NCBI RefSeq assembly: GCF_009914755.1 | Contig: NC_060939.1 | DNA: 64,000 nt | From: the human T2T-CHM13v2.0 reference genome, Homo sapiens | Strand: one strand, 5' to 3' | Part shown: positions 58,301 through 59,271 of the stretch, piece after piece | How positions within the stretch are numbered: the first letter of the stretch is position 1 | Layout: every line of letters begins with the position of its first letter | Notes under the pieces: generated by a model | What the model saw: only the letters and a program-made list of their open reading frames with translations | Told to the model about the DNA's origin: nothing | Database searches by the model: none | Made by a program: the position numbers and the translations under genes

Positions 58301-59271
58301 GCTTGAACCCAGGAGGCGAAGGTTGCAGTGAGCCAAGATAGCACCACTGCACGCCAGCCTGGGCAAGAGTGAGACTCCTTCTCAAAACAAACAAACAAAA
58401 GAAACAGAGTTAAGTGCCCAAGAGAAGAGTGAAAACTTAGCAATGTAAATCTAGAGCATATCAGCATTAAATTAGGATGGCTGAAACAATACATAGAATA
58501 TTTATAGTAACACCTGGTAGTTTCTTCCAATGCACATATATAATAAATAGAATCATGGAAGCTTTTTCTATTACCTAATCATTTTACAGCCTTGTAGATT
58601 TAACAAACTAAAATGAAAACTGAATCTCCATTCCATAGCTTGCTAAGTAATTTTTGATGTTCTCTTTCTCCTCTGTCTTATACGTGAAACTCCAACAGAT
58701 TTAATATTGGCATTTATCATCTAGTCAAATCCTTCAGATGCTCTTTAAACCAGTCCAGTTTGAGACTCTCAAGCGTTTCTCTGTTAATAAGGAGTGAAAT
58801 TAGTAGATTTGATGAAGACCTGGTTTTTTTCCTTGCCACATTGAACTTCTAGGCACCATTTGGATTCGGTTTTAGTGTATGGGTTGGAGAACTGTAGCTG
58901 TTTCTTGACCTGCCTCTTAATGGTAGAGATGTAGAAGGGCAAGCAAGACCACAAGGAGACCGGCTGTAGGCTGTAGGGCACTGTTGGAGGGCTTTGTGGT
59001 TTCGGCTGCAGTAGCTTCCGGCATACTGGTTAAAGGAACAAATGAAGAAACCTGCACGGGTAGGAGCAGCGCCAGAAGTAGCAGACCCAGAATGAGCATC
59101 GCCACCATCCCCTTACCCATTTGGATCAGTGTGCCGTGTGTCCAGCTTGCTGCTCAGTGTGCTGGAGGATGGGTGGCTCCTGGCTGGTGCAGGGGAGATA
59201 GCAAGTAGGGTCTTATATTCAAGGGGCATCATAATGGCAGTGACATCACTCCCTTTCCTCCTACATCCAGA
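55319..59271 (-). pseudogene. CD24P2: CD24 processed retrocopy (probably the annotated CD24P2), full-length mRNA copy interrupted by 7 Alus, in PCLAF intron 3
   Basis: Intronless CD24-like ORF followed by segments resembling my recollection of the CD24 3'UTR (e.g. gcaaggaaaaaaaccaggtcttcatcaaatctactaat; tggaatggagattcagttttcattt; cattgaacacaaact...atggctgaaaagag). TSD pair caaatactttgttt (55305-55318) / caagtactttgttt (59272-59285). The symbol is from memory of a 15q22 CD24 homologue. Confidence 0.85.
58917..59120 (-). CDS. Intact 67-aa CD24-like ORF: putative GPI-anchored microprotein (coding status unproven)
   Basis: [67 protein letters not shown] aligns with CD24 [26 protein letters not shown]...[27 protein letters not shown]. 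Start and stop are at homologous positions and the net deletion is in frame. Confidence 0.5.

What the first reader, a model, noticed from the sequence alone, without database searches (positions are those of the whole stretch)
58917..59120. Old CD24 retrocopy keeps an intact ORF for a divergent GPI-anchored microprotein (candidate retrogene nested in PCLAF intron 3)
Seen: a 67-codon ORF with ATG and stop at CD24-homologous positions. It has a hydrophobic signal peptide (~1-26), a ~20-aa Ser/Thr/Pro-rich mature segment ([20 protein letters not shown]), a plausible omega site (N46-S47-A48) and a hydrophobic C-terminal tail. The copy is old: its 3'UTR is visibly diverged and contains 7 Alus, one AluJ-like (55620-55896), while the 5' ~870 bp (58403-59271) has no insertion. 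Known: CD24 and CD52 are tiny GPI-anchored glycopeptides with this architecture, and CD24 is a Siglec-10 ligand. Inference: the processing signals are retained while the mature peptide is shortened in frame (67 vs 80 aa), rewritten, and has no N-glycosylation sequon. That pattern fits a neofunctionalised retrogene rather than a dead pseudogene. Caveats: a 204-bp ORF can survive neutrally, and the locus is probably already annotated as a pseudogene, so any novelty would be its coding function.
Basis: partly seen in the sequence, partly recalled or inferred. Interest (0 to 1): 0.8.

Follow-up and report, generated by a model that had tools for sequence, protein, structure and literature searches.

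The report
Conserved CD24-like retrogene inside PCLAF
An old intronless copy of the CD24 gene inside an intron of PCLAF still encodes a 67-residue CD24-like precursor, and matching intact reading frames in monkeys, a marmot and several unnamed database records suggest an unannotated, conserved small surface-protein gene, not a dead pseudogene.

Summary
Window 58917-59120 (-) is an intact 67-codon ATG-to-TAA ORF inside a full-length, intronless CD24 copy (about 55321-59244, sense in the last PCLAF intron) that carries 7 Alus. It passes Pfam CD24 (38.6 bits, cut-off 27).

The human ORF alone proves little. Neutral simulation gives 3.6-7.4% survival, and dN/dS against the parent (0.32) overlaps that of dead copies (0.39-0.87).

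The cross-species evidence carries more weight. Protein searches found 11 further sequences with the same rewritten peptide ([23 protein letters not shown]). Three are named (Colobus, Piliocolobus, Marmota) and eight unnamed. Nine are open from a start codon to the homologous stop. The other two are gene models that hold only part of the ORF.

These sequences split from true CD24 with 100% bootstrap. Their signal-peptide and GPI-tail hydrophobic cores change at 0.40 of the flank rate, against 0.79-0.84 in neutral simulations. No broken member was found, although broken CD24-pseudogene ORFs are in the same databases.

Most likely (about 0.6) this is an unannotated retrogene older than the primate-rodent split. 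It would encode a roughly 20-residue GPI-anchored peptide rich in Thr, Ser and Pro and without N-glycan sites.

Expression, GPI anchoring and DNA-level dN/dS across species could not be tested. Ascertainment bias remains the main caveat.

The parts
55321..59244 (-). Whole CD24-derived processed copy: inherited promoter fragment, 5'UTR, ORF and 3'UTR interrupted by 7 Alus. It lies in sense orientation in the last intron of PCLAF.
   Evidence: Blocks against the parent mRNA, 5' extension, intron absent.
59210..59244 (-). Inherited fragment of the parental core promoter: a TATA-like GAATATAAGAC (59220-59210) and the upstream block GTCACTGCCATTATGATGCCCC (59244-59223).
   Evidence: Local alignment to the chr6 CD24 promoter, which holds GTCACGGCTATTGTGG...GGTATATAAGG. 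The translated flank of P0014 keeps LEYK (TATAAG). P0015 lacks a 21-nt segment here.
59121..59209 (-). 5'UTR homologue. It has no ATG between the TATA-like motif and the start codon. CpG is depleted: observed/expected 0.25, against 1.02 in the parent.
58917..59120 (-). 67-codon ORF, ATG to TAA.
59043..59120 (-). Predicted signal peptide, residues 1-26, with hydrophobic core L11-L20.
   Evidence: Colinear with the CD24 signal peptide. Core conserved across the subfamily. Cleavage after S26 is inferred.
58983..59042 (-). Predicted mature peptide, residues 27-46 ([20 protein letters not shown]): 6 of 20 Ser/Thr, 3 of 20 Pro, no N-X-S/T.
   Evidence: The motif F/S-V/I/T-P-L-x-S/N-T is shared by the subfamily.
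58920..58982 (-). Predicted GPI-attachment signal, residues 47-67, with omega at about N46. A48 (omega+2) is invariant. The spacer is LQPTAG and the hydrophobic tail is [13 protein letters not shown].
   Evidence: Pfam match to residues 38-66. Invariant columns. Tail unchanged or conservatively changed in all members.
59026..59027 (-). AG of a potential 3' splice site (ttcatttgttcctttaaccAG|TATGCC). Spliced to PCLAF exon 3 (phase 2), it would read in frame into ORF residues 33-67.
   Evidence: The NCBI model P0066 (Piliocolobus 'PCNA-associated factor isoform X1', 132 aa) has exactly this join.
58700..58705 (-). ATTAAA 212 nt after the stop, at the position homologous to the parent's proximal ATTAAA (210 nt after its stop) and upstream of the first Alu.
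   Evidence: Its use is inferred.
58110..58406 (+). Alu 1 in the 3'UTR.
57734..58049 (+). Alu 2.
57151..57451 (-). Alu 3.
56806..57103 (-). Alu 4.
56491..56797 (-). Alu 5.
55911..56208 (-). Alu 6.
55620..55885 (-). Alu 7, the most diverged. Its family was not determined.
   Evidence: 68.5% to the Alu in the parent 3'UTR.
62162..62324 (-). Host PCLAF exon 3. It ends ...aag aga aa|gtaagt, in phase 2.
   Evidence: and the annotation supplied with the finding.

Best explanation
**What it is.** The ORF is the human copy of an ancient CD24-derived retrogene that is still under selection. A CD24 RNA that began upstream of the TATA box was reverse-transcribed into the last intron of PCLAF, in sense orientation, before primates and rodents diverged.

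**How it changed.** Early deletions (net -30 nt against the other old human copies, -39 nt against today's CD24) replaced the N-glycosylated mucin segment with a shorter Thr/Ser/Pro-rich peptide that begins FVPLTS.

**How it probably works (inferred by homology to CD24).**
- The precursor enters the ER through its signal peptide, which is cut after S26.
- GPI transamidase attaches an anchor at about N46 and removes residues 47-67.
- This leaves a lipid-anchored peptide of about 20 residues, probably O-glycosylated, on the cell surface.

**Transcription (inferred).** It may start at the inherited TATA-like element and end at the conserved proximal ATTAAA. That would avoid the Alu-filled distal UTR.

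**Shown here:** origin, anatomy, cross-species ORF retention, and constraint on the two hydrophobic segments.

**Inferred:** transcription, translation, processing and function.
For: **Origin.**
- The copy is intronless and homologous to the full-length parent mRNA.
- It carries the parental TATA region.
- In the 3'UTR maximum-likelihood tree its terminal branch is 0.183 substitutions per site, among the oldest of 8 human copies.

**Family.** Pfam CD24 is above cut-off. The ESM Atlas first hit is the CD24 cluster, score 0.96.

**Orthologue group.**
- 9 of 13 hits and 12 of 93 hits share the derived motif.
- Named members are Colobus angolensis, Piliocolobus tephrosceles and Marmota marmota.
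- 9 of the 11 non-human sequences run from a Met to the homologous stop, at 63-69 aa, or 104-124 aa with in-frame upstream read-through. The other 2 are gene models: P0003 leaves the ORF after residue 53, and P0066 joins it at residue 33.
- The exhaustive HMMER search gives 5 subfamily cluster representatives at 85-115 bits, then a drop to true CD24 at 74 bits or less.
- The 20 true CD24 proteins in the tree form a clade with 100% bootstrap on a branch of 0.344, apart from the subfamily.

**Same locus.** The upstream read-through of P0006, P0014 and P0015 matches the human 5' flank. P0066 fuses the ORF to PCLAF exons.

**Constraint.**
- Hydrophobic cores changed at 19 of 133 positions, against 85 of 236 in well-aligned flanks. 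The ratio is 0.40; neutral simulations give 0.79-0.84.
- Radical residues in the cores number 2 in 7 lineages, against about 14 expected. P is 5e-6 to 4.5e-5 for 7 independent lineages and 0.004-0.01 for 4.
- A48 (omega+2) is invariant.
- Against human, the 5' flanks of P0014, P0015 and P0006 each change frame at least once, while the ORF shows only in-frame gaps.

**No broken members.** None was found, although broken CD24-pseudogene ORFs are in the same databases (P0092, P0093, P0111, P0116, P0123, P0125).
Against: **Ascertainment.** Databases of predicted proteins show open frames preferentially. I could not obtain the orthologous DNA of any other species (metagenome scans are capped at 0). 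The fraction of mammals with a broken ORF is therefore unknown.

**Human data alone fit neutrality.**
- ORF survival is 3.6-7.4%.
- Only 1.4% of neutral substitutions in this ORF create a stop.
- NG86 dN/dS against the parent is 0.32, but the dead chr11 copy gives 0.39 and chr1 and chr3 give about 0.5.
- The CDS is more diverged from the parent (K2P 0.47) than the 3'UTR (0.23-0.29).

**Weak sequence constraint.**
- Amino-acid identity to human is 67.6% in the CDS against 52.5% in the translated 5' flank for P0014.
- The figures are about 58% against 39-49% for P0015, and 64.7% against 61% (aligned part only) for P0006.

**No independent gene annotation.**
- There is no RefSeq gene or pseudogene row at the site (table supplied with the finding).
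- NCBI names none of the orthologues as a separate gene.
- The two primate models are odd: a PCLAF fusion and a form with a spliced C-terminus.

**Promoter doubts.**
- No CpG island is left.
- The TATA segment is missing in the P0015 record.

**UTR.** The human 3'UTR has taken 7 Alus.

**No direct evidence.** No expression or protein evidence was seen. Supplementary ORF catalogues were closed.
Confidence: 0.6

Rival explanations
1. It is a neutral processed pseudogene. The short, Leu-rich ORF survived by chance in humans, and the database hits are simply the lucky minority of species that protein prediction makes visible.
For: - Human-lineage survival is 3.6-7.4% in simulation, and the stop-gain fraction is only 1.4%.
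- dN/dS against the parent is not distinct from that of dead copies.
- The CDS is no better conserved against the parent than the UTR.
- The translated 5' flank is only moderately less conserved than the CDS.
- There is no annotation and no expression data.
Against: - Nine independent-looking non-human full ORFs exist and no broken member, while broken CD24-pseudogene ORFs are present in the same databases.
- The hydrophobic cores change at half the neutral relative rate, with almost no radical residues. That test does not depend on ORF ascertainment.
- All gaps within the ORF are in frame, while each available 5' flank has frameshifting indels.
Confidence: 0.17
2. It was a real retrogene in mammals, but the human copy is no longer used. 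It would be silent or only passively transcribed within PCLAF pre-mRNA, with its ORF not yet hit.
For: - Seven primate-specific Alus lie in the 3'UTR.
- CpG is depleted and there is no island.
- Human-specific replacements occur at otherwise conserved positions: T33M, S54G and position 10.
- There is no RefSeq row at the site.
Against: - The human sequence keeps every invariant column of the subfamily.
- It also keeps the start, the stop, the TATA-like motif and the proximal ATTAAA upstream of all the Alus.
- Human differs from the closest non-human record (P0002) at only 4 of 63 residues.
Confidence: 0.15
3. The selected function is as an alternative last exon of PCLAF. Exon 3 would splice to the AG at 59026-59027 and give PCLAF(1-96) fused in frame to the last 35 ORF residues, a hydrophobic-tailed PCLAF isoform.
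For: - The NCBI model P0066 in Piliocolobus has exactly this join and carries both the Pfam PAF and CD24 domains.
- The human sequence has the polypyrimidine tract plus AG, and the phase matches.
Against: - Only 1 such model appears among 93 hits.
- The annotation supplied with the finding lists no further PCLAF exon in the window.
- This reading would not explain conservation of the start codon, the signal-peptide core and the FVPLTS motif, all upstream of the acceptor.
- P0008 has N where the AG-bearing Ser codon lies.
Confidence: 0.08

Closest known systems
CD24 (signal transducer CD24; Pfam PF14984), the parent gene on chr6
   Same: - The precursor plan is the same: a signal peptide, a short Ser/Thr-rich mature peptide, small omega residues followed by A-L-Q, and a 13-residue hydrophobic tail ending HLY-x.
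- The two ends are colinear with CD24, and Pfam is above cut-off.
   Different: - The precursor is 67 aa against 80 aa.
- The mature part is about 20 aa against 33 aa and begins FVPLTS instead of the N-glycosylated S/N-x-T repeats.
- There are no N-X-S/T sequons in human, and only 1 of 9 non-human full-length members has one (P0004).
- It is intronless and sits inside PCLAF.
- It forms a separate clade-level split from the 20 true CD24 proteins used in the tree (100% bootstrap).
- Identity to true CD24 is 37-58%.
Human CD24 processed pseudogenes (CD24P1 chr1, CD24P2 15q21.3, the chr20 copy, CD24P4 chrY; names partly recalled)
   Same: Same parent, and the same LINE-mediated intronless origin.
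   Different: - The chr1, chr3, chr11, chr14, chr20 and CD24P2 copies have lost the ATG or carry stops, frameshifts or an Alu in the CDS.
- The chrY copy is intact only because it is 99% identical, that is, young.
- The window copy is among the oldest yet intact, and it alone has cross-species counterparts with the same derived peptide.
CD52 and other very small GPI-anchored glycopeptides
   Same: By recalled knowledge, these also have a tiny mature peptide serving mainly as a glycan carrier on a GPI anchor.
   Different: No sequence relationship was tested or claimed. This is an analogy only.
Retrogenes that inherited a parental promoter through an upstream transcription start (a concept from the retrogene literature, recalled)
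   Same: The copy includes the parent's TATA box and about 30 bp upstream of it.
   Different: Promoter activity is untested. The TATA segment is absent in one orthologue record, and the parental CpG island has decayed.

Membership tests
CD24 family (Pfam PF14984) | Profile match above the curated gathering score. | tested here: met
   38.6 bits against a cut-off of 27, E=1.3e-9, but only residues 38-66 (profile positions 24-52 of 52). In the genome scan: 38.4 bits, over the cut-off.
CD24 family (Pfam PF14984) | N-terminal signal peptide homologous to that of CD24. | tested here: met
   Colinear DNA and protein alignment. The core [10 protein letters not shown] is identical to the parent. Cleavage itself was not tested.
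CD24 family (Pfam PF14984) | C-terminal GPI signal: small omega, omega+1 and omega+2 residues, a short spacer and a hydrophobic tail. | tested here: met
   Sequence features are present and conserved: N-S-A in human, A48 invariant, tail 13 aa. Actual GPI attachment cannot be tested with these tools.
CD24 family (Pfam PF14984) | Heavily N- and O-glycosylated mucin-like mature peptide with several N-X-S/T sequons. | tested here: not met
   No N-X-S/T in the human mature part, and only 1 of 9 non-human full-length members has one (P0004, N-T-T). Ser/Thr make up 6 of 20 residues, so O-glycosylation remains possible.
CD24 family (Pfam PF14984) | Sialoglycan-dependent binding to Siglec-10 or Siglec-G, or to other CD24 ligands. 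| not testable with these tools
Functional processed retrogene | Derived from spliced mRNA, so it lacks the parental intron. | tested here: met
   The parent GT..AG junction is seamless in the window.
Functional processed retrogene | Poly(A) remnant and target-site duplications. | tested here: inconclusive
   Homology ends at 55321, just after an ATTAAA (55322-55317), in A-rich diverged sequence. I did not search for duplications, given the age.
Functional processed retrogene | ORF retained in orthologues of distant species. | tested here: met
   9 non-human full ORFs plus 2 partial gene models, including Marmota and two colobine monkeys. Caveat: the evidence comes from protein databases only, so ascertainment is unknown.
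Functional processed retrogene | Purifying selection (dN/dS below 1 among orthologues). | tested here: inconclusive
   At protein level the hydrophobic cores are constrained. DNA of orthologues was not obtainable. Human against parent gives 0.32, which is not distinct from the dead copies.
Functional processed retrogene | Independent transcription and translation. | not testable with these tools
   Only indirect hints exist: gene models in Colobus and Marmota (UniRef 'Uncharacterized protein') and Piliocolobus (NCBI PCLAF isoform X1).

The most novel reading that the evidence does not exclude
Humans and most placental mammals carry a second, unannotated CD24-family gene. It would be a retrogene roughly 90 million years old, nested in PCLAF, that makes a 20-residue, O-glycosylated, GPI-anchored surface peptide without N-glycans. 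It would have its own expression pattern and possibly its own lectin (Siglec-type) partners. The same DNA might also serve as an alternative PCLAF terminal exon.
Probability: 0.4. Interest if true: 0.8.

Novelty: new member of a known kind. Interest (0 to 1): 0.66.

Why it matters
CD24 is under intense study as a Siglec-10 'don't-eat-me' ligand and as a cancer marker. A conserved paralogue with the same anchoring signals but a different glycopeptide would be a missing member of that system.

Its mature peptide shares only a few residues (T-T-K) with that of CD24, so CD24 reagents would probably miss it (inferred).

It would also be a clear example of a human microprotein gene overlooked because it looks like an Alu-riddled intronic pseudogene, and of a retrocopy that took part of its parent's core promoter with it.

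If the rival readings hold, it is a useful calibration case. A 67-codon Leu-rich ORF can stay open for about 0.18 substitutions per site in several percent of neutral trials.

Tried and rejected
- **Ancestral-state reconstruction.** I tried it to separate changes on the copy's lineage from those on the parent's. I did not reconstruct ancestors any other way. I used pairwise NG86 against existing sequences with the dead copies as controls, and the result did not discriminate.
- **Frameshift origin of the middle peptide.** One multiple alignment places deletions of 22 and 8 nt, so that the middle would be read out of the ancestral frame. Pairwise alignments under four gap settings gave between 1 and 4455 co-optimal solutions with different gap placements. 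The question stays unresolved. Whatever happened predates all the orthologues.
- **'This is CD24P2'.** Rejected. CD24P2 lies beside RFX7 at 15q21.3 (passage in PMC4081011), which is the other chr15 copy.
- **DNA of orthologues.** The viral-contig scan found none. The first genome-contig request errored because no alignment block was conserved enough. With a narrower alignment the scan found none. Metagenome scans are capped at 0.
- **Truncated subfamily ORFs.** The 'shorter' search (30-33 aa) found none at E<=0.1 among 2910 candidates.
- **Literature.** Searches for CD24P2, CD24 with retrocopy or processed pseudogene, CD24 pseudogene, CD24-like, CD24 retrogene, CD24P1 and CD24L4, PCLAF or KIAA0101 with retrogene terms, and CD24 paralogue, homologue or retrocopy returned nothing on this locus. 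Passages read in PMC1847692 and PMC10358856 mention only the pseudogenes on chromosomes 1, 15 and Y. PMC7589721 and PMC8039522 only name CD24P1, P2 or P4 in expression lists.
- **Simulation.** The script stopped on a bug of mine after 2 of its 5 parameter settings. Only those two results are used.
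Full report
**1. The observation**

The window has a 67-codon ORF on the minus strand at 58917..59120. 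It runs ATG to TAA and encodes [67 protein letters not shown]. Pfam's CD24 model matches residues 38-66 at 38.6 bits (cut-off 27, E=1.3e-9). The ESM Atlas places the sequence next to the CD24 cluster with score 0.96.

**2. What the locus is**

The whole human genome could be searched. The DNA around the ORF matches the CD24 gene on chr6 and eight other places. The Pfam model finds the chr6 exon 2, the chrY, chr1, chr15 (53.9 Mb) and chr3 copies, and the window copy above cut-off.

I located the parent's exon1/exon2 junction, which has GT..AG and gives an 80-aa protein. In the window the two exons are joined seamlessly, so this is a processed copy.

Parent mRNA positions 33-2183 align to 59193-55321 in seven blocks separated by seven Alus. 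The 58401-59193 block is uninterrupted.

Homology continues 5' of the mRNA start I had used. Window 59244-59210 (GTCACTGCCATTATGATGCCCCTTGAATATAAG) aligns with the parent's GTCACGGCTATTGTGGCTTTCCTGGTATATAAG, which is the CD24 TATA box plus about 30 bp upstream. The template RNA therefore started upstream of the TATA box. Database ORFs of other CD24 retrocopies (P0096, P0105, P0018) read through the same promoter stretch, so such templates seem to recur.

The copy lies in sense orientation in the last PCLAF intron (annotation supplied with the finding). That table has no gene or pseudogene row here. CD24P2 is a different locus, beside RFX7 (passage of a table in PMC4081011). That copy has a GTG start and an Alu inside its tail codons.

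**3. Age**

K2P distance to the parent is 0.45 in the 5'UTR, 0.47 in the CDS and 0.23-0.29 in four 3'UTR blocks.

In a maximum-likelihood tree of the proximal 3'UTR of nine human sequences, the window copy has a terminal branch of 0.183. It pairs with the chr14 copy (0.309) at 88% bootstrap, at the far end from the parent. The other terminal branches are:

| Copy | Terminal branch |
|---|---|
| chr11 | 0.154 |
| chr20 | 0.119 |
| chr1 | 0.091 |
| chr3 | 0.101 |
| CD24P2 | 0.026 |

The window copy is therefore one of the two oldest human copies. All the other old copies lack the ATG or carry stops or frameshifts. The intact chrY copy is 99% identical to the parent.

**4. Is the human ORF alone evidence of function? 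No.**

- Only 1.4% of neutral substitutions in this Leu/Ala/Thr/Pro-rich frame make a stop.
- I started from the parent CDS. Substitution (0.183 per site) and indel rates came from this copy's own 3'UTR: 25 gap events in 1240 aligned nt, 6 of 25 a multiple of three.
- The frame from the original ATG to the original stop survived in 3.6% of 20,000 trials. At half the indel rate it survived in 7.4%. The script stopped after these two settings.
- NG86 dN/dS against the parent over the 53 reliably aligned codons is 0.32 (21 synonymous and 21 non-synonymous differences).
- The same measure on dead copies gives 0.39 (chr11), 0.49 (chr3), 0.50 (chr1), 0.68 (chr14), 0.74 (chr20) and 0.87 (CD24P2), so it does not discriminate.
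- The alignment of the 24 nt encoding VPLTSMPE to CD24 is ambiguous. I cannot say whether that stretch arose by in-frame deletion or by a compensated frameshift.

**5. Cross-species evidence**

*What the searches found.* A search of 5.8 billion predicted proteins with the ORF gave 13 hits at E<=0.01 among 91 candidates. Nine of the 13 carry the same derived peptide:

| Record | Identity to human / form | Source |
|---|---|---|
| P0001 | identical to residues 5-67 | no source shown |
| P0002 | 94% | unnamed |
| P0003 | 85 aa, leaves the ORF after QPTA | Colobus angolensis, UniRef A0A2K5JXP1 |
| P0004 | 68% | unnamed |
| P0005 | 67% | Marmota marmota, UniRef A0A8C5Z3W5 |
| P0006-P0009 | 64-67% | unnamed |

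The other four hits are true CD24, at 37-51% identity.

A profile of eight members (A2) gave 93 hits among 8000 scored candidates. It added three members:
- P0014 (124 aa).
- P0015 (120 aa).
- P0066, NCBI 'PCNA-associated factor isoform X1' of Piliocolobus tephrosceles (132 aa), which carries both the Pfam PAF and CD24 domains.

I read 53 of the 93 sequences. The remaining 40 all carry a source's own name: CD24 or CD24-like for 39, and 'hypothetical protein' for P0049 (77 aa, Pfam CD24).

An exhaustive HMMER pass over 1.84 billion cluster representatives found 51 hits. Five are subfamily representatives at 85-115 bits, plus P0066, then a drop to 74 bits or less. I read all 45 non-subfamily hits. 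None has the motif.

A search of 30-33-aa proteins found nothing.

*State of the non-human sequences.* Nine of the eleven run from a Met to the homologous stop:
- P0002, P0004, P0005, P0007, P0008 and P0009 are 63-69 aa.
- P0006, P0014 and P0015 are longer only through in-frame upstream read-through.

Two are gene models that hold part of the ORF (P0003, P0066).

Either M1 or M5 is present in every one. M1 is absent in P0006 and P0015, and M5 in P0007 and P0009.

*Monophyly.* In a protein tree, the 20 true CD24 sequences form one clade (100% bootstrap, branch 0.344), apart from the 10 subfamily sequences.

*Same locus.* The read-through parts of P0014, P0006 and P0015 match the human 5' flank, for example human ..VTAIMMPLEYKT.. 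against P0014 ..VIAIVTHLEYKA... P0066 joins the ORF to PCLAF exons. These are therefore orthologues of the window locus, not separate retrocopies. The named marmot record puts the insertion, and the rewriting of the peptide, before the primate-rodent split.

**6. Is this selection or ascertainment?**

Protein databases favour open frames, and I could not fetch orthologous DNA, so I looked for tests that do not depend on ORF openness.

(a) *Hydrophobic cores.*
- The 19 core positions are residues 11-20 and 55-63. Across seven deep lineages (P0004, P0005, P0006, P0007, P0008, P0014, P0015) they changed at 19 of 133 positions.
- The well-aligned flanking positions changed at 85 of 236, a ratio of 0.40.
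- Neutral substitution simulations on the human ORF give 0.79-0.84, with or without an AT-biased spectrum.

(b) *Radical residues.*
- D, E, K, R, H, Q, N or P appear in those cores twice in the seven lineages.
- Simulations matched for overall identity (0.60-0.74, no stop) give about 2 per lineage.
- P(sum<=2) is 5e-6 to 4.5e-5 for seven independent lineages, and 0.004-0.01 if only four count as independent.

(c) *Omega site.* A48, the predicted omega+2 residue, is invariant.

(d) *Indels.* Each available 5' flank changes frame at least once relative to human within about 130 nt. The 200-nt ORF shows only in-frame gaps, 1-2 per comparison. This contrast is partly imposed by ascertainment.

(e) *Broken relatives.* Broken ORFs of other CD24 pseudogenes are present in the same databases (P0092, P0093, P0111, P0116, P0123, P0125), but none of this subfamily is.

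Against selection, overall amino-acid conservation is modest. CDS against translated 5' flank is 67.6% against 52.5% (P0014), about 58% against 39-49% (P0015), and 64.7% against 61% (P0006, aligned part only).

I read this as real but weak sequence constraint. It is concentrated on the two processing signals, the FVPLTS motif and the omega region. That pattern is expected for a tiny glycan-carrying GPI peptide.

**7. Mechanism (inferred by homology to CD24)**

- The signal peptide is residues 1-26. The sequence before the predicted cut is V-S-S in human and I/V-Y/S/N-S/T in the others.
- The mature peptide is residues 27-46, with 6 of 20 Ser/Thr, 3 of 20 Pro and no N-glycan sequon.
- The GPI signal has omega at about N46, then S47, A48, a six-residue spacer and a 13-residue hydrophobic tail.
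- There is no ATG between the TATA-like motif and the start codon.
- An ATTAAA sits 212 nt past the stop, at the position of the parent's proximal signal and upstream of every Alu. A transcript of about 0.55 kb would therefore be possible.
- None of this was tested. The parental CpG island is gone (observed/expected 0.25 against 1.02), and one orthologue record lacks the TATA segment.

**8. A second possible use**

PCLAF exon 3 ends in phase 2 (..aag aga aa|gtaagt). The ORF contains a polypyrimidine tract plus AG at 59027-59026. Splicing there would read AA|T ATG CCG.. in frame into residues 33-67.

P0066 is exactly this product in a colobine monkey. It would be a PCLAF with a hydrophobic tail and no signal peptide. 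Only one such model was seen, and it cannot account for conservation upstream of the acceptor.

**9. Comparison with what is known, and novelty**

The protein meets the sequence definition of the CD24 family but lacks its N-glycan sequons. It forms its own orthologue group.

Five literature searches and the passages I read mention only the chr1, chr15 and chrY pseudogenes. Nothing describes this locus or a conserved CD24 paralogue. Supplementary ORF catalogues could not be opened, so it may be listed there.

I file it as a new member of a known kind.

**10. Verdict**

| Reading | Probability |
|---|---|
| Conserved CD24-like retrogene, with the human copy still coding | about 0.60 |
| Neutral relic | 0.17 |
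| Functional elsewhere but idle in humans | 0.15 |
| Mainly an alternative PCLAF exon | 0.08 |

The decisive test is an unselected census of the ORF across placental genomes with codon models, followed by human transcript and Ribo-seq evidence and a PI-PLC release assay.

Noticed in passing
G000:C24:19898392-19899290 (locus L011): The chrY CD24 copy is 99% identical to the parent mRNA and has an intact 80-aa ORF. It also carries an extra upstream exon that maps about 0.6 kb upstream of exon 1 on chr6, so it came from an alternatively initiated, spliced transcript.
   Followed up: partly
G000:C15:53874923-53876244 (loci L004, L007, L014): This is the copy next to RFX7, which is CD24P2. It is 89-97% identical to the parent. 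Its start is GTG instead of ATG, and an Alu with a long poly-T sits inside the codons of the C-terminal hydrophobic tail.
   Followed up: partly
G000:C6, parent CD24 mRNA positions about 1183-1500 (locus L005): The 3'UTR of the functional CD24 gene itself contains an Alu. It is absent from the window copy and so was inserted after that retroposition.
   Followed up: no
proteins P0096, P0105, P0018 (database records): ORFs from other CD24 retrocopies in primates and a rodent-like record also read through the CD24 TATA-box region ('HVTAIV..YKV'). This suggests that CD24 RNAs starting upstream of the TATA box were repeatedly retroposed.
   Followed up: no
window 55350-55440 (-): The odd C-terminus of the Colobus model P0003 (..SYLYVLYLLHLFWIVHCVWNGFALNTN) resembles one frame of the distal end of the retrocopy's 3'UTR as I read it by eye; no tool call translated or aligned it. 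If so, that model skips about 3.5 kb, including all the Alus. Its junction does not fit a plain GT-AG intron in the human sequence.
   Followed up: partly
window 59113-59298 (-): A 61-codon ORF in another frame overlaps the start of the CD24-like ORF and covers the promoter and 5'UTR homologue. Its peptide resembles the upstream read-through parts of P0006 and P0014. That reflects DNA conservation of the flank, not a coding signal, because the frames differ between species.
   Followed up: yes
window 28089-28221 (+): The supplied annotation lists a SNORA48-like snoRNA gene in the CSNK1G1 part of the window. I did not examine it.
   Followed up: no
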